Source of the DNA: a virus
Taxonomy: Duplodnaviria; Caudoviricetes
Length of the DNA stretch: 36,244 bases
IMG/VR virus record: IMGVR_UViG_3300020045_018325
Location: 1 to 36,244 of that record
Strand: one strand, 5' to 3'
Shown: positions 3,956 through 25,137 of the stretch, piece after piece
Layout of the letters: each line of letters begins with the position of its first letter
Position numbering within the stretch: the stretch's first letter is position 1
Position numbers and translations under genes: made by a program
Notes under the pieces: model-generated
The model's database searches: none
What the model was told of the DNA's origin: nothing
What the model saw: only the letters and a program-made list of their open reading frames with translations

Positions 3956-4060
3956 AATAAGAACTATACATAATACCCACTATTTCAAAAACCATACAAA
4001 CTTGAAATAGTGGGTCTTTCACGACATAGCCAAAGTGGCTATGGTGAAACGTTAGCAGAT

Positions 4061-4786
4061 TCATTTAATATCTTTTTTAATTTCACGAATACGTTTAATA
4101 GAAGAAGGGAATATGCTCTTTGGCATATCGGATAGTTTAGTTAATCCAAGTTTATTAAGAATCTCTTGAGAAAGGCTTGGATGATCCTTTAGCTCAGTCA
4201 TTAGTTCTGTATGCTGATCTTGAGTTATCTTTTCTACTATCGGTTCGTCTACTTTAACCTCTTTTTTTTTTACATCTTCTGCAAAATCAACATCTACGCC
4301 ATCAGTATCTTCACTACGAGAGATACCAACCAACCCTTCAAGAATATATTTTTTGAAGTAGGTGATCTGTGTTCCCTGTGCTTGTAGTTCATTCTGTCCG
4401 GCTCCTGGTTTAAGCGATCTTAAACGCATACGACCTTCAATCCATTGACCACTTGCATGAGCAAGTCTGGTATATACGAATCCAGTTTCTGTTGGATCTT
4501 CAACGGGTGGCTGTATAACACACAACCCATTCTTAGAAAGAGCAGGAAGCACCGCATTGAGAAGATCATCAAGTCCGGCATAGTTATACTTAGAAAAGTT
4601 ATGTCTCTTCGTTTTTACGGCAGATTTGAACTCGCCTTGTGCTTTTGCTAAAGCTGAATAAAGATCCTGGGTTTCTTTTGAATGCCACATATATTCTTTT
4701 TTAAGATGAGCTTCATAAAGTTTAAGATGCGCCTGTAAAAGTTCATCATTGAGCTGTTTTATGTAGCTGAGAATTATTCCGTCCAT
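4061..4786 (-). CDS. erf: ERF-family single-strand annealing protein
   Basis: LYSALAKAQGEF...KYNYAGLDDLLNAVLPALSKNGL...TRLAHASGQWIEG...GTQITYFKKY.L. Start moved to ATG 4786, which has an AGAAGGA RBS. Confidence 0.88.
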   Translation of the reverse strand: MDGIILSYIKQLNDELLQAHLKLYEAHLKKEYMWHSKETQDLYSALAKAQGEFKSAVKTKRHNFSKYNYAGLDDLLNAVLPALSKNGLCVIQPPVEDPTETGFVYTRLAHASGQWIEGRMRLRSLKPGAGQNELQAQGTQITYFKKYILEGLVGISRSEDTDGVDVDFAEDVKKKEVKVDEPIVEKITQDQHTELMTELKDHPSLSQEILNKLGLTKLSDMPKSIFPSSIKRIREIKKDIK

Positions 4787-4815
4787 GCATATCCTTCTGA
4801 GTAAATTGTTTAGAA

Positions 4816-4846
4816 GACTCCCCCAAGACATAAGCTTGGGGGAGTC
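4816..4846. promoter_or_regulatory. Perfect 12-bp hairpin in the erf leader
   Basis: GACTCCCCCAAG-acataag-CTTGGGGGAGTC. Confidence 0.6.
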
Positions 4847-4986
4847 CAGTGCATTAATCCTATCGCTGACGAAAGGACAGCTTAAGACATATATAAATAT
4901 AACATATCTATAACGTAAGTCAAACATTTGATTAAACTATTTATAACATGTATGATATATGTATATTAATTTAAACTGGGATCTGT

Positions 4987-5214
4987 ATGATTACGTTACA
5001 AAACTATAAAGAGAGAATTGCTGTGAATCAAGATGAATTAAGAACTACCGTATTAGAGCTTATGGCAAAAGAGAATATTAGTCTGAGTAGATTATCGGTT
5101 GAGGTTGGTTGCAGTTGGGCTACAGTTAAGAAGTTTTTGAGTGACATGGGGTTGGTAAGTCGAGAAACTTCAGATAAATTAAAAGAATGGGTGGATTCAT
5201 ATCCATCAGAGTAA
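4987..5214 (+). CDS. Small Cro/XRE-like HTH regulator
   Basis: ENISLSRLSVEVGCSWATVKKFL helix-turn-helix pattern; divergent from erf across an AT-rich gap. Confidence 0.7.
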   Translation: MITLQNYKERIAVNQDELRTTVLELMAKENISLSRLSVEVGCSWATVKKFLSDMGLVSRETSDKLKEWVDSYPSE

Positions 5215-5227
5215 TATGTATGGCCGT

Positions 5228-5254
5228 GCCATACGAAGCTTTAGCGAAGTATGG
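5228..5254 (-). repeat. REP-like palindromic element (family A)
   Basis: Minus strand reads ccatacTTCGCTAAAGCTTCGtatggc; CCATAC/GTATGG arms. Confidence 0.65.
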
Positions 5255-5325
5255 AGCCGTAGCTCAGATGGTAGAGCAACTGCTTTCACGCAGAAGGGCG
5301 GGGGTTCGAGTCCCTTCCGGCTCCT
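5253..5325 (+). tRNA. Atypical tRNA-like gene, identity undetermined (6-nt anticodon loop TTTCAC)
   Basis: Acceptor GGAGCCG/CGGCTCC; D arm GCTC-AGATGGTA-GAGC; T loop TTCGAGT; anticodon stem CTGC/GCAG; no encoded CCA. Confidence 0.7.
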
Positions 5326-5330
5326 TTTAT

Positions 5331-5406
5331 GGCCCCCTTGATTACCGGTTAGATCGCCAGCCTTTCACGCTGGAGGAAGTGGGTTCGATTCCCCTGGGGG
5401 CTGCCA
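5331..5406 (+). tRNA. tRNA-Glu(TTC)
   Basis: Acceptor GGCCCCC/GGGGGCT; anticodon arm CCAGC-CTTTCAC-GCTGG; T loop TTCGATT; encoded CCA; one mismatch in the T stem. Confidence 0.85.
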
Positions 5407-5656
5407 ATCCGTGACATTTTGTCACAAGTTGAAAAAGTACTACATGTTAACCCCATTTAACACATAGACGGACTAAATGATAAAACCGTATAACATCCAG
5501 TGCCATCTAATTATTCTCGTAGCAAACTTAGTGAATTTTTGTTTACATTCGTACAATACTCGTATAAAGTAATTTCTGGAATTGTATCAGTAAGCTACGA
5601 CAGTCTAAGCAACTGTCACAACGACCACCGTTCGGTGTGTCACGAAAGGAATCTCT

Positions 5657-6755: not shown

Positions 6756-6956
6756 TTAAGATACTTTTCTTCCTGGTTGTAATAGTCTTGAAGGTCTCTG
6801 TTTGGGTATATATAGATTAGATTTCACAAAAAGAGCCTCTTCAACAAATTTGTTTAAAGACATGCCAGGCTCCCAATAAACGATATCTCTTATTTTTTCT
6901 AACAAATCTTCATTTATTTGTGTGCTGAGTATTTTTTTCTTCATATTGTTTTCCAT
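6756..6956 (-). CDS. Small ribbon-helix-helix-like DNA-binding protein
   Basis: ILSTQINEDLLEKIRDIVYWEPGMSLNKFVEEAL beta-alpha-alpha pattern; overlaps the stop of the recombinase-derived gene. Confidence 0.6.
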   Translation of the reverse strand: MENNMKKKILSTQINEDLLEKIRDIVYWEPGMSLNKFVEEALFVKSNLYIPKQRPSRLLQPGRKVS

Positions 6957-7909
6957 CTTCCGGATTCATCTTGTTCTATTTGATCTGCCATCTCCAAATC
7001 AAATAATAGTTGTTGGACCTCTGTAACATCTTTAGATAGATAGTGCATAATTTCTTCTTGTGTTTTGGGAGTTTTGCAGAATTTACAGAGAGGATTGAGT
7101 CCATATATTTTATTTTCTATAGTATCTATCTTTTTTGTCTTTAATGCATGAGTTGGCAATATGTCTTCATTGATATAAGAAGCTATTACTTTTGTATCGG
7201 TTATTTTTTGTAGATCAAAAAAAACAGTTCCATTCTGTGTATCTCCTATGGCTGACTTTACAACTAATTCCAGAAAGGTATGCATCTTGTTAGGGCTCTT
7301 GAATATTTTGTCATCAATATTGAACATCTTAAGTATAGGTAAAAGAGCAGTACTAATAGTTGTTTCAGTTAAAGCTTTATGAGGAAGTCCAGAATTCTTA
7401 TTTGCGCATATATAATAGGTATATTTTTCTTTCTTTATATCGCCAACCAAAAAGGTATTACATTGAGAGCATCGAATAGATTTCTTATAGAGATGATTAT
7501 ATTTTTTATTACTAATGCCCTGCTTTCTGGGTTTCCCCGACATTACTTCTTGAACTTTATTAAAAATATCTTCATCTATAAATGTTTCATAGTCGTGCTT
7601 GTACTCTTTATCTTTGATGAAAATCTTTCCAATATAAAAAACATTTCTCAAATTGCGATGTAGATTTGATCTATGTATGGGGCGATTGTATTTATTCTGT
7701 AAATGTAGCGCTAAGTTATTGAGCGATATGGTATTGGTTGCATAAAGGCTAAATGCTTCTTTTATTATGCGTGCATCATCATTAGGACATACCCAATTAG
7801 AGCTATTTATTCTCATGTGAGAGTAACCCATAGGAGCCTTAAAGGGGATGTGCCCATCTTCAGCTCTCTTTTGCATACCAAATTTTATTTTTGCTGAGTG
7901 TTGTTTCAT
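6941..7909 (-). CDS. Large-serine-recombinase-derived protein (recombinase domain plus Zn ribbon, no catalytic domain) with a C-terminal DprA-like winged helix
   Basis: KIKFGMQKRAEDG..PFKAPMGY, A.IIKEAF.LY, LRNVFYIG, FIDEDIFNKVQE, IRCSQC...YTYYIC. No YxRxS motif. Tail TQEEIMHYLSKDVTEVQQLLFDLEMADQIEQDESGRW. Confidence 0.8.
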   Translation of the reverse strand: MKQHSAKIKFGMQKRAEDGHIPFKAPMGYSHMRINSSNWVCPNDDARIIKEAFSLYATNTISLNNLALHLQNKYNRPIHRSNLHRNLRNVFYIGKIFIKDKEYKHDYETFIDEDIFNKVQEVMSGKPRKQGISNKKYNHLYKKSIRCSQCNTFLVGDIKKEKYTYYICANKNSGLPHKALTETTISTALLPILKMFNIDDKIFKSPNKMHTFLELVVKSAIGDTQNGTVFFDLQKITDTKVIASYINEDILPTHALKTKKIDTIENKIYGLNPLCKFCKTPKTQEEIMHYLSKDVTEVQQLLFDLEMADQIEQDESGRWKTI

Positions 7910-7965
7910 ATATCTTATAATACCACACTTGTATTAAAAGTAAAGAATGGTATTCTTAATTTACC

Positions 7966-9495
7966 ATGATTATAAAAACACAGTCAGCCGTACTTATCGG
8001 TATAGAAACACAGTTGGTAAAAGTAGAATTATCTGTTCGTTACAAGCAGACCCATAAGTTTAGTATTGTAGGGATGGGAGATAAGTCTATTCAGGAGAGC
8101 CGCAAACGCATTATAGCGGCTTTACATACGGTTGGAATAGATTTAGAACAGCAAGATATTATGGTTAATTTAGCCCCTGCCCATATAAAGAAGGTTGGAT
8201 CTCACTTTGATTTGGCTATATTAGTAGCTCTTTTGACCTACTACAAGATTGTTTCATTTACGTCTGAATATCTGAGTAAGGCAATCTTCTTGGGCGAACT
8301 TTCTTTTGATGGTCATATTAATCCGGTACAAGGAGTTATGGCTATAGGGTTGGATTGCCCAAAGTTAGGAATAAAGAGGCTTATAGTTCCCTTAGATAAT
8401 ATTAAAGATAAGAGTGATCATGTTGAAACTATAGGAGTTTCTACGGTTAAAGATCTTATTGCCTATGCAACTAAAAAAGATTGGAAGCCTCAAGAATCAC
8501 CACCTGTATCTGAATCTTTGGTATCGTACAGTGACTTCAAAGATATAAAGGGTCAAAGACTAGCCAAGCGTATGCTACAGATATCAGCAGCAGGTAACCA
8601 TAATGGCATATTGGTAGGTCCTCCTGGTTCAGGAAAGAGCATGCTTGTTAAAGCACTACCCTCTATTATGCCCCCTCTCACTACTCATGAGATGATGGAG
8701 GTAAATCGGGTCTATTCGGTTGCGACTGAAGTCTACAAGGGTATGAGACAAGAACGCCCTTTCCGTAATCCACATTATGGTATATCTCAAGCAGGTATGG
8801 TAGGAGGAGGAAGCCCCCTGCGTCCGGGAGAAATATCATTTTCCCATAATGGAGTTCTCTTTTTGGATGAGTTAACTGAATTCCGCAGATCTACTATTGA
8901 GTCATTAAGGCAACCATTAGAAGACAGAGTAGTGACCATATCAAGGGCTCATGGATCAATAGAATTGCCCTGTTCATTCTTGATGATAGCAGCTATGAAC
9001 CCATGTCCATGTGGAAATTTAGGCGATAATAAACGTTCGTGTAGTTGTACGCCTCTTGTTATCTATAATTACTTAAAGAAGATCTCAGGGCCATTCTTGG
9101 ATCGTATAGACCTACAAGTATTTATACAGAGTGTAGATATTTCAGAATTACATGCATCGACAGAGGAGACGTCCTCTCAGCAGCTATATGAGGAAGTTAC
9201 TGTAGCACGAGATATGCAGGCAGGAAGATTTAATAACCGTGAATATACTAACAACATGCTTACTCCGGGAGAGATTCAAGAGTATGCAAAGCTTGATATA
9301 AGTTGTCAGAAGTTATTGGATTTTGCTTTTGAGAAGTTTGATATGAGTATGCGTAGTTATCATAAGATTATTAGGGTAGCCCGTACAATAGCAGATATGA
9401 AGGGTATGACATGCATACAAGAGTCTCACCTTAAAGAAGCGCTTATGTATCGTGGTATCGAACAAAAACTCTTAATGTTAAAGAAAAAGCTATGA
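7966..9495 (+). CDS. comM: YifB/ComM-family Mg-chelatase-like AAA+ helicase, full length
   Basis: VNLAPA..KK.GSHFDLAI, LGELSFDG, GPPGSGKSML, RPFRNPH, RPGEISFSHNGVLFLDE, AAMNPCPCG, ISGPFLDRIDL, SMRSYHKIIRVARTIAD. Confidence 0.95.
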   Translation: MIIKTQSAVLIGIETQLVKVELSVRYKQTHKFSIVGMGDKSIQESRKRIIAALHTVGIDLEQQDIMVNLAPAHIKKVGSHFDLAILVALLTYYKIVSFTSEYLSKAIFLGELSFDGHINPVQGVMAIGLDCPKLGIKRLIVPLDNIKDKSDHVETIGVSTVKDLIAYATKKDWKPQESPPVSESLVSYSDFKDIKGQRLAKRMLQISAAGNHNGILVGPPGSGKSMLVKALPSIMPPLTTHEMMEVNRVYSVATEVYKGMRQERPFRNPHYGISQAGMVGGGSPLRPGEISFSHNGVLFLDELTEFRRSTIESLRQPLEDRVVTISRAHGSIELPCSFLMIAAMNPCPCGNLGDNKRSCSCTPLVIYNYLKKISGPFLDRIDLQVFIQSVDISELHASTEETSSQQLYEEVTVARDMQAGRFNNREYTNNMLTPGEIQEYAKLDISCQKLLDFAFEKFDMSMRSYHKIIRVARTIADMKGMTCIQESHLKEALMYRGIEQKLLMLKKKL

Positions 9496-11799: not shown

Positions 11800-12210
11800 A
11801 TGTATATTATTCCCGGAGATCCTGTTCCATTAGCCCGTGCTCGCATTGGCCATGGTGCAAAGCGCATGTATGATTCTCAGAAAGAACTAAAAATGCATGC
11901 CGGCATAATCGTCAATTCCCAGCACAAAAGCGATACTTTCCTCGAAGGGCCATTACACCTCGATGTTACTTTCTTTATGCGTATCCCAAGAAAAATACAC
12001 ACAAAACGTAATCTAGAAAGAACTCATACGTATCATTATTGCCGACCAGATTTATCTAATCTTATAAAATTTGTTGAGGATGCAGTGCAGTCAATTCTAT
12101 TCCATGATGATGCGCAAATCTGTTGCATTACAGCACGAAAGATTTATCATCAAGAGCCACGTACCGAATTCACCCTCAAACAATTACATAAAAATGAAAA
12201 ATACCAGTAA
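11800..12210 (+). CDS. rusA: RusA-family Holliday junction resolvase
   Basis: IPGDPVPLARAR, GPLHLDVTFFM, RPDLSNLIKFVEDA...LFHDDAQI...ARKIY; AGGAG RBS. Confidence 0.9.
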   Translation: MYIIPGDPVPLARARIGHGAKRMYDSQKELKMHAGIIVNSQHKSDTFLEGPLHLDVTFFMRIPRKIHTKRNLERTHTYHYCRPDLSNLIKFVEDAVQSILFHDDAQICCITARKIYHQEPRTEFTLKQLHKNEKYQ

Positions 12211-19630: not shown

Positions 19631-20272
19631 TTAATAGTATCTATTGTTACAGTTCTCTTTATGAGAGACCCAACGGCAATTACCAGGTTCGTAGTTTCCA
19701 TTATTATCTATGCGATCTATAGTCATTTTTGGTGGCCGATCACCCATGTCTTTATAGAAATTTTCAAATTTAAGCCATTGTTCGCATACTTTTATACCAC
19801 GACCGCCATACCTGTTAAAAAACCTTGATTTGGGATTAGTACAGCGTTGTATCATAGTTCTCCATACAAAATAAATATTGGTTTTATGCATTCCATGAGT
19901 TTTATTATTTTCTGCAACTTCACGGTTATGGCATATAGTACATTGCTTTGACTTTCCTGATCTTAAATCAGCAGCGCAGTGTAATCCTATGGTCCCACAG
20001 TCACACTCGCATTCAAATCTAAGTAGCTTTCTGTGCACATCAACAAATTTCTTTATTGTCCATTTTCCATACTTCTTTCCTATCTCTTTTTCTGGATTAT
20101 AAAGTTTGTAGTACTGACATTCTGCGCACTGTTTAGACCGACCTGCATTCAATGTAGCAGTAGGAATTATTCTTAGGTTTCCACAAGAGCATAAACACTC
20201 ATAGTTTCTACCCGGTTTAACATCAGGTGCATAAGCCAAAACTGTCCATTCACCAAATTTCTTGCCAATCAT
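19631..20272 (-). CDS. Free-standing HNH-like homing endonuclease
   Basis: Two IGKK(F/Y)G.WT...C.C.CG...L..G.SKQC repeats; WRTMIQRC..YGGRGIKVCEQW; TIDRIDNNGNYEPGNCRW...EN..N. Confidence 0.8.
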   Translation of the reverse strand: MIGKKFGEWTVLAYAPDVKPGRNYECLCSCGNLRIIPTATLNAGRSKQCAECQYYKLYNPEKEIGKKYGKWTIKKFVDVHRKLLRFECECDCGTIGLHCAADLRSGKSKQCTICHNREVAENNKTHGMHKTNIYFVWRTMIQRCTNPKSRFFNRYGGRGIKVCEQWLKFENFYKDMGDRPPKMTIDRIDNNGNYEPGNCRWVSHKENCNNRYY

Positions 20273-24459: not shown

Positions 24460-25137
24460 GTGATGAATTTGAACAGGAAATGTAAGCATTGTGCAATAGA
24501 ACTGACAACAGAAAATGCTGCCAAAAAGAATGCATTTTATTTTAGAAATGAATGTAAAAAATGTCGCAGTAAAGAAATGATGAATTATCATACAGGTAAT
24601 CTGAAACGTAAGGCGTATATGAATGATTACAATCGTCGTATAGGAAAAGTAAAACAATATCCTTGTGAAACCTGTTCAGTGCTTTGTTACAAGAAATATA
24701 AAAAAGCCTTTTGTTCCGATATGTGCAGATTTTTATCATATGTCGACAAAACAGAAACGTGTTGGCTTTGGAATGGTGGAAAAGGAAGAAAAGGATATGG
24801 CAAATTCTCTTTTAGAGGGAATAAAACTGCTGTAGCATCTCGCGTGTCTTATGAATTATTTCATGGTCCAGTTGAAGAAAATATGTTTGTATGTCACACA
24901 TGTGATGTGCCTTTGTGTGTAAATCCTGAACATCTTTGGATGGGAACTCATCAAGAAAATATGATGGATATGACTCAAAAAGGTAGGCAAAGTTCAATCC
25001 TTACTCCAAAAATAGTTTACCAAATTAGAAAGTTATTTAATGAAGGTATAACCAATTCTGAATTGTGTGAAAAGTTTAAGAAAAGTTCTTCACAGATTAG
25101 TAATATAATAGCTCGAAGAATATGGAAGCATGTATAA
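24460..25137 (+). CDS. HNH homing endonuclease with N-terminal Cys motifs and a C-terminal HTH
   Basis: CWLWNG...GYGKF...SRVSYELFHG...VCHTCDVPLCVNPEHLWMGTHQENMMD. Confidence 0.9.
   Translation: MMNLNRKCKHCAIELTTENAAKKNAFYFRNECKKCRSKEMMNYHTGNLKRKAYMNDYNRRIGKVKQYPCETCSVLCYKKYKKAFCSDMCRFLSYVDKTETCWLWNGGKGRKGYGKFSFRGNKTAVASRVSYELFHGPVEENMFVCHTCDVPLCVNPEHLWMGTHQENMMDMTQKGRQSSILTPKIVYQIRKLFNEGITNSELCEKFKKSSSQISNIIARRIWKHV

What the first reader, a model, noticed from the sequence alone, without database searches (positions are those of the whole stretch)
6756..9495. Phage-borne ComM helicase paired with a catalytically dead serine-recombinase DNA binder carrying a DprA-like winged helix: candidate site-specific helicase-recruitment system
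Seen: an intact comM lies head-to-head (56-bp gap) with a 322-aa gene that has LSR recombinase and Zn-ribbon motifs, no catalytic domain, and a ~50-aa tail resembling the DprA C-terminal winged helix. An RHH gene is coupled downstream. Known: ComM is a hexameric branch-migration helicase of natural transformation, often encoded near dprA. As I recall, the DprA winged helix has been reported to recruit ComM in Gram-negative bacteria. Mobile elements usually disrupt comM rather than carry it. Inference: the fusion could load ComM at a specific DNA site, for origin unwinding (no other helicase was recognised), for recombination with ERF and RusA, or to hijack or block host transformation.
Basis: partly seen in the sequence, partly recalled or inferred. 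Interest (0 to 1): 0.9.

Follow-up and report, generated by a model that had tools for sequence, protein, structure and literature searches.

The report
Phage helicase with repurposed integrase adaptor
A family of small phages carries the bacterial DNA-uptake helicase ComM next to a cut-down integrase that has lost its cutting domain and gained the hook bacteria use to grab ComM, so it likely steers the helicase onto chosen double-stranded DNA; our literature searches found no description of this pairing.

Summary
Confirmed, and not a one-off. The window is a complete circular P22-like phage, probably of Babeliae. It carries an intact comM head-to-head with a 322-aa protein. That protein keeps the two DNA-binding domains of a large serine recombinase, has lost the catalytic domain and the ~107-aa coiled coil, and ends in an acidic DprA-type winged helix (WH). 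49 such WH-tailed proteins were found; 0 of 148 full-length recombinases have the tail. A profile of the tails retrieves only DprA among 2101 bacterial ORFs. The gene sits beside comM in 8 viral records, in several positions and layouts, including single or tandem recombinase domains and twin paralogues. It is absent from 17 of 17 complete relatives that lack comM. The family's ComMs form one clade with intact motor residues. Only 1 of 18 complete capsid-relatives has comM, so the cassette is accessory, and a replicative-helicase role is unlikely. Most likely it is a rewired DprA-ComM unit that loads ComM on phage DNA to drive ERF/RecT recombination intermediates.

The parts
6756..6956 (-). 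66-aa RHH-like small protein, overlapping the end of the adaptor gene by 16 bp; likely autoregulator of the divergent promoter
   Evidence: 48-49% identity to homologues in L002, L003, L008; no family hit in the window protein; seen only with the head-to-head layout
6941..7909 (-). 322-aa adaptor: end of helix E, recombinase domain (RD), zinc-ribbon domain without coiled coil, linker, DprA-type winged helix; no catalytic domain
7535..7846 (-). Recombinase (RD) DNA-binding domain, about residues 22-125
   Evidence: Pfam PF07508 E 7e-8; family RD profile
7205..7492 (-). Zinc-ribbon domain, about residues 140-235; the coiled coil is cut from about 107 residues to 5-20
   Evidence: PF13408; C147, C150 and C168 invariant in 33 of 33; gap measurement
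6944..7099 (-). Acidic DprA-type winged helix, about residues 271-322; predicted ComM hook
   Evidence: (pLDDT 87)
7910..7965 (.). 56-bp divergent intergenic region; one sigma-70-like site pointing at the adaptor gene; a loosely shared core, which is a perfect 20-bp palindrome in L002
   Evidence: (site count not above shuffles)
7966..9495 (+). Intact ComM/YifB helicase, 509 aa; K224, E302, R315, R380, R463 and the C4 zinc site are kept
4061..4927 (-). Context: ERF single-strand annealing protein
   Evidence: Pfam ERF E 1e-20
11800..12210 (+). Context: RusA Holliday-junction resolvase
   Evidence: Pfam RusA E 2e-22

Best explanation
The phage carries an intact ComM helicase and a recombinase-derived protein with a DprA-type winged helix; the recombinase domains likely bind double-stranded phage DNA, the winged helix is predicted to dock on ComM's C-terminal domain, and ComM would then drive branch migration on the phage's own recombination intermediates. 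SHOWN: domain anatomy; loss of the catalytic domain and coiled coil; a DprA-type acidic tail; intact motor motifs; purifying selection; strict pairing of the adaptor with comM; accessory distribution. INFERRED from known families: RD/ZD bind DNA as in serine integrases; the WH binds ComM as DprA's does; DprA-ComM pairs are species-specific, so carrying both would give the phage a private pair insulated from host DprA. INFERRED from context only: the substrate is an ERF/RecT- or RecA-made D-loop, used for circularising terminally redundant genomes or for recombination-dependent replication, and resolved by RusA. My odds: WH recruits ComM about 0.8; binding is sequence-selective about 0.6; purpose is the phage's own recombination about 0.5.
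For: Tail identity: a profile built only from 31 phage tails hits 13 of 2101 ORFs in 80 bacterial comM loci (826 kb). The 10 best were scanned and all 10 are DprA, best E 2e-9. The profile aligns without gaps to Rhodopseudomonas DprA 3MAJ 343-374 (E 0.27, weak). ESM Atlas: 10 of the 10 best family-bearing hits are DprA_WH or kin (0.87, a lead only). The WH is as conserved as RD and ZD (33%, 33%, 32% mean identity; linkers 15-17%). Its net charge averages -4.7 (range -8 to 0), against +2.8 for RD, which suits protein binding rather than DNA binding. Pairing: the adaptor lies next to comM in the window, L002, L003, L008, L174, L306, L329 and L331. 0 of 17 complete comM-less relatives have RD or tail. 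11 of 26 adaptor clusters looked up share an exact contig length with one of 120 listed ComMs. In L174, L306, L329 and L331 the adaptor directly follows comM, where dprA sits in bacterial operons. The 3 family ComM lineages without a WH partner have lost the C-terminal Arg and helix that the other 20 of 23 keep. dN/dS between G047 and G048: adaptor 0.11, comM 0.07, capsid 0.09. Context: comM lies in the ERF/RecT transcription unit in G033, G046, L318, L325 and L342, and in the decayed L302/L303. Literature: the DprA WH binds ComM's Mg-chelatase domain, species-specifically (10.1101/2024.10.21.619469); ComM prefers three-strand branch migration to fork unwinding (10.1101/147660).
Against: No DNA target site was found: no repeated 11-mer occurs 4 or more times in the window, and no repeat near the cassette stands out. 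The window's own tail is below the Pfam cut-off, and Foldseek on the tail model returns only generic winged helices, with DprA not among the rows shown. The ComM C-terminal loss concerns one clade, so it may be a single event. The DprA paper also notes that the R497-E353 contact is not conserved in H. pylori, and Legionella ComM has Lys there. In G047/G048 and L008 the cassette sits among packaging genes, and in the window, L329 and L331 it lies upstream of the putative initiator rather than in the ERF operon. Most relatives do without it (1 of 18), and one lineage has deleted it (L302/L303). The tails of L329 and L331 score weakly (E 0.08 and 0.6). No expression data.
Confidence: 0.5

Rival explanations
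1. Conflict weapon: the adaptor binds sites in host or competitor DNA (for example attachment sites of rival serine-integrase elements, or comM itself) and loads ComM there to displace proteins, collapse D- or R-loops, or disturb rival elements.
For: The DNA-binding part diversifies strongly: 22-39% identity across the family, 1-4 tandem RDs (up to 5 stretches), two paralogues 31% alike behind one comM. The cassette is patchy, mobile and sometimes lost. comM homologues are the commonest LSR target, 12.4% (PMC10083194).
Against: 0 of 81 loci of related full-length LSRs carry a comM or DprA-WH fragment (a partial sample, not the nearest relatives). dN/dS is low, with no sign of positive selection in the one close pair tested.
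Confidence: 0.2
2. Replication module: the adaptor marks the origin and ComM, an MCM-related AAA+ ring, opens it or serves as replicative helicase.
For: ComM's ATPase is MCM-like (10.1101/2024.02.15.580443). The cassette lies directly upstream of the putative initiator in the window, L329 and L331. No other helicase was found in the window.
Against: 17 of 18 complete relatives lack comM, and no DnaB-type helicase was seen in them (G039 has an SF2 helicase, G018 an unrelated AAA). Cassette-bearing phages keep a gene in the HTH-initiator slot. ComM has poor fork processivity (10.1101/147660), and its dodecamer faces the opposite way to MCM's (10.1101/2024.02.15.580443).
Confidence: 0.13
3. The fusion is only a transcription regulator or DNA-binding protein; the tail is an ordinary winged helix and the link to comM is shared ancestry.
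For: The fold search sees generic wHTH proteins (IclR, MarR, Z-alpha). The layout in the window is divergent.
Against: The tail is acidic in all 31 aligned copies, its profile is DprA-specific, and it persists when the zinc domain is lost or RDs multiply.
Confidence: 0.08
4. The pair helps an integrase-less phage, or host DNA that it carries, recombine into the host chromosome, as DprA and ComM do for gene-transfer-agent DNA.
For: No tyrosine integrase or resolvase domain in 5 of 5 cassette genomes tested for each. RcGTA recipients need DprA and ComM (PMC12378983).
Against: Phage and Babela ComM are only 47% identical, too distant for homologous integration at comM. No integrated copy was seen, though Babeliae genomes could not be reached.
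Confidence: 0.07
5. Assembly chimera or chance capture of host genes.
For: The adaptor gene is GC-poorer than the genome (32% vs 40%).
Against: The same three genes occur in independent records at three positions; family ComMs form one phage clade; both genes are under purifying selection.
Confidence: 0.01

Closest known systems
[not shown]
   Same: Intact ComM plus a partner ending in a DprA-type winged helix; in four lineages the partner sits directly behind comM, as dprA does in many bacterial operons.
   Different: The partner has no DprA core (PF02481, the ssDNA- and RecA-binding part); LSR double-strand DNA-binding domains take its place. It is phage-encoded, and no uptake genes are present.
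Large serine recombinases (A118/LI, Bxb1, phiC31, SPbeta); nearest named relatives are from Dependentiae/Babeliaceae (P0020, P0070)
   Same: RD and zinc-ribbon domains, by sequence and by fold.
   Different: No catalytic domain or serine, no coiled coil, an added WH; some members have 2-4 tandem RDs or the RD alone.
LSR elements that integrate into comM (PMC10083194; phage WO)
   Same: An LSR-type gene next to comM on a mobile element.
   Different: There the LSR is whole and comM is split and belongs to the host; many such loci appear. Here comM is whole and phage-borne, and the LSR is dead.
Loader-motor pairs such as RuvA-RuvB, TniQ-TnsC, and the MCM-like Cch helicase beside ccr recombinases in SCCmec (all recalled, not tested)
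   Same: A DNA-recognising protein positions an AAA+ motor.
   Different: No shared loader fold; none is known to me to use ComM or a DprA WH.

Membership tests
ComM/YifB helicase | Lon-like, AAA+ with C4 zinc site, and Mg-chelatase C domains; score above the family cut-off | tested here: met
   (TIGR00368 473 > 362)
ComM/YifB helicase | Walker A K224, Walker B E302, sensor R316, R381, arginine finger R463 | tested here: met
   aligned to Legionella ComM 8RXD, residues; invariant in 15 of 15
ComM/YifB helicase | ATP-driven branch migration | not testable with these tools
   needs purified protein
Large serine recombinase | N-terminal catalytic domain with serine nucleophile | tested here: not met
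   0 of 49 tail-bearing proteins have the motif; 0 of 30 hit PF00239; 13-39 residues precede the RD start vs 152-184 in full LSRs; none encoded separately in 5 of 5 genomes
Large serine recombinase | RD and zinc-ribbon DNA-binding domains | tested here: met
Large serine recombinase | Coiled coil inserted in the zinc domain (synapsis) | tested here: not met
   5-20 residues in 33 members vs 106-109 in the 11 of 100 full LSRs where it could be measured
DprA | DNA_processg_A (PF02481) core | tested here: not met
   no hit in the window protein or in 30 homologues
DprA | C-terminal DprA_WH (PF17782) | tested here: met
   at family level: 4 of 30 above cut-off and 2 of 9 more; reverse search finds only DprA; the window's own copy is below cut-off
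DprA | WH binds ComM | not tested
Ribbon-helix-helix regulator (66-aa gene) | match to an RHH family or fold | tested here: inconclusive
   one homologue hits BrnA_antitoxin at E 0.007; no hit for the window protein

The most novel reading that the evidence does not exclude
Phages have built a modular, re-targetable helicase-delivery system: a swappable sequence-reading front end (one to several integrase recombinase domains, or in a sister lineage other nuclease-less DNA-binding repeats) joined to a DprA hook that loads a private ComM motor at chosen double-stranded sites, taking ComM out of natural transformation altogether. Swapping the front end would then give a programmable branch-migration motor.
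Probability: 0.4. Interest if true: 0.92.

Novelty: new variant of a known kind. Interest (0 to 1): 0.82.

Why it matters
ComM is known as a transformation-only helicase that mobile elements break; here a phage family keeps it and appears to have rebuilt its loader. If binding holds, this is natural evidence that the DprA winged helix is a portable ComM hook, and that integrase DNA-binding domains can be recycled as address labels. It gives a direct way to test open questions in the ComM field: whether recruitment alone is enough for loading, what sets direction, and whether ComM acts on substrates other than incoming single-stranded DNA. It also points to a large, little-described phage family of protist-dwelling Babeliae (533 capsid matches in IMG/VR; host inferred).

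Tried and rejected
VIA-align searches of the tail: machine busy, no result. Metagenome scan with the adaptor alignment: stopped at 11 of 64 parts and was swamped by ordinary LSRs. Genome scan with the ComM C-terminus: stopped at 1 of 64 parts with no Dependentiae row, so prophage state and the host's comM-dprA order are untested; its loci served as the DprA control. Idea that the ancestral LSR targeted comM or dprA: 0 of 81 loci, not supported but under-sampled. Target-site hunt by repeats and palindromes: nothing convincing; the gap palindrome may be an RHH operator or a shared -35 element. GenBank phages and plasmids: no record covers 80% of the adaptor; comM hits in 'phage' records were 32-46% and not followed up. 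PHROGs has no ComM family match better than E 5e-5. Sequencing runs: no RNA holder listed; four DNA runs gave only short pieces, none bridging the cassette. L006 and L170 are ordinary full LSRs; L304, L305 and L307 were chance pattern hits (3 of 6). The careful tree did not finish; both trees are quick IQ-TREE runs with SH-aLRT only. Literature searches (listings only) showed no paper on a phage ComM with an LSR-WH partner.

Full report
OBSERVATION. The window is a whole circular virus record with direct terminal repeats (121-bp overlap). It has a P22-like portal, terminase, capsid, ERF and RusA. ComM is complete and passes the YifB cut-off. It aligns end to end with Legionella ComM 8RXD and keeps the residues that the structure paper names as catalytic (passages seen). 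The 322-aa protein starts at the end of helix E. Its AlphaFold model (pLDDT 70) matches serine-integrase DNA-binding regions (26 PDB hits at E<=0.001; the 24 of them that are listed are all serine integrases). It lacks about 130 N-terminal residues and the coiled coil of about 107 residues. These are the catalytic and synaptic parts (PMC11722253, passages).

A FAMILY, NOT AN ACCIDENT. The word-indexed search gave 6 clusters of 318-322 aa. The exhaustive search added many more that align to the last residue. Among all proteins fetched, 49 carry the tail at E<1e-6: 43 with RD plus zinc ribbon, 5 with 2-4 RDs and no zinc ribbon, and 1 fragment. None has the catalytic motif, and 0 of 148 full-length LSRs has the tail. 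The tail profile was built from 33 of these, so they match it by construction. The nearest named full-length relatives are from Dependentiae/Babeliaceae.

THE TAIL. It folds as a winged helix (pLDDT 87). Structure alone does not tell it from other winged helices. Sequence does: 16 of 30 homologues hit DprA_WH at E<=0.5 and 4 pass the cut-off. In reverse, the tail profile hits 13 of 2101 ORFs in 80 bacterial comM loci; the 10 best were scanned and are all DprA. The consensus Q-x-x-L-x-D-L-Q-L lines up with DprA's ILLELEL (3MAJ). The tail is acidic (mean -4.7) and as conserved as the DNA-binding domains.

PAIRING. Eight viral records show the adaptor beside comM. Head-to-head with the small RHH-like gene: the window (between ERF and the putative initiator), L002 and L003 (between terminase and portal), and L008 (before terminase). 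Directly behind comM: L174 (RD+WH only, 201 aa), L306 (two paralogues), and L329 and L331 (two RDs, weak-scoring tail). For proteins without DNA, 11 of 26 adaptor clusters share an exact contig length with one of the 120 listed ComMs. This is indirect, and four of the misses are contigs too short to hold both genes. For a denominator I took 46 of the 80 best capsid relatives (of 533 matches, longest records first): 1 of 46, and 1 of 18 complete ones, has comM. None of the 17 complete comM-less genomes has an RD or a tail. L302/L303 hold a deletion scar that joins the first 70 codons of comM to the end of the tail. Four records (L317/G046, L318, L325, L342; three lineages) have comM without the adaptor. 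There comM is followed by other DNA-binding-type genes, then ERF.

ORIGIN. In a quick tree of 48 ComMs, the 21 family ComMs form one clade (SH-aLRT 93) inside a group with Babeliae sequences (87). Partner type follows the tree: no-WH (94), RD-only (100), window type (100) (one search agrees on the window-type clade). Only two of the presumed cellular rows are named (Babeliales; Babela massiliensis, 47%), so the host is inferred. A likely history is one capture of a comM-dprA operon, followed by replacement of DprA's core with LSR domains. Whether Babeliae have that operon order was not testable. dN/dS between G047 and G048 is 0.11 for the adaptor, 0.07 for comM and 0.09 for capsid. The three WH-less ComM lineages have lost the C-terminal Arg and helix kept by the other 20 of 23. 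This is the region that DprA contacts in Vibrio (L455, R497), but it may be one event, and the residue mapping is by numbering only.

MECHANISM. The DprA WH binds ComM, recruits it, and does so species-specifically (10.1101/2024.10.21.619469; I read the abstract, Results part 1 of 3, section 9 and the Discussion; its supplementary alignments were not seen and bear on the residue mapping). ComM is a monomer until it meets DNA and ATP, unwinds 60-bp forks poorly and prefers three-strand branch migration (10.1101/147660, passages). The simplest reading is therefore a DprA replacement that reads double-stranded DNA and loads a private ComM. For the purpose I favour the phage's own recombination. 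ERF-cluster genes are in 19 of 21 genomes and RusA in 20 of 21, and comM often lies in the ERF/RecT unit. That P22-type phages need ERF recombination to circularise is recalled knowledge. A replicative role fits poorly with 17 of 18 relatives lacking comM; a P-loop scan of 1032 called genes and a Pfam scan of 65 of 95 non-core representatives showed no DnaB. A conflict role is the main rival, given tandem RDs, paralogues and loss. No target site was found.

COMPARISON AND NOVELTY. The adaptor is not a large serine recombinase (two defining parts absent) and not DprA (core absent); it works like DprA by inference. It is the reverse of the common LSR-in-comM insertion (12.4% of site-specific LSRs, PMC10083194, passages; review PMC12378983, passages), of which one search shows many. 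Eight literature searches (listings only, open-access library) and three look-ups of earlier scan findings showed no description of this pair.

VERDICT. A real, conserved, accessory two- or three-gene phage module. It is a new variant of the DprA-ComM unit, with a 0.4 chance of being a new class of site-directed helicase loader. Interest 0.82.

Noticed in passing
L317:5494-6276, L318:5494-6855, L325:4514-5584: In family phages whose comM lacks the RD-WH partner, comM is directly followed by Cys-rich HNH-associated repeats with an acidic N-terminus (L317, L318), or by zinc-finger repeats plus HTH with an acidic C-terminus (L325), then ERF. These may be alternative ComM adaptors; the N-termini of L317 and L318 are only weakly alike (30%, E 0.7).
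   Followed up: partly
L351, L359, L373, L384 (about 3977-5500 in each); also L352, L370, L374, L375, L387: A second, unrelated group of viral records with full-length, divergent comM among phage-like small genes and no RD or WH nearby; three tested form their own long-branch clade.
   Followed up: partly
L303:4775-5070 (same DNA in L302): Deletion scar: the first 70 or so comM codons are joined to the last 28 or so codons of the WH tail in another frame.
   Followed up: yes
window 5253-5406: tRNA-Val(CAC) and tRNA-Glu(TTC) between the Cro-like gene and the cassette.
   Followed up: no
G046, G029, G039, G033 (L217:3800-5431, L209:19168-19635, L214:16036-16809, L211:9851-10672): The family often carries host-type genes: GroEL, RuvC, SPFH, an RNA ligase; also ankyrin and Fic proteins.
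   Followed up: no
L002:5908-5927 (approx.); window 7910-7965: Perfect 20-bp palindrome in the adaptor-comM gap of L002, one mismatch in L003, degenerate in L008 and the window; possible RHH operator or shared -35 element.
   Followed up: partly
G000, G033, G046, G047, G048, G051: No tyrosine integrase or resolvase domain in the complete genomes tested (5 for each family), despite a lambdoid divergent early region; lifestyle unclear.
   Followed up: partly
window 19631-20272 and 24460-25137: Two HNH-type genes among the head genes; the second hits HNH_3.
   Followed up: no
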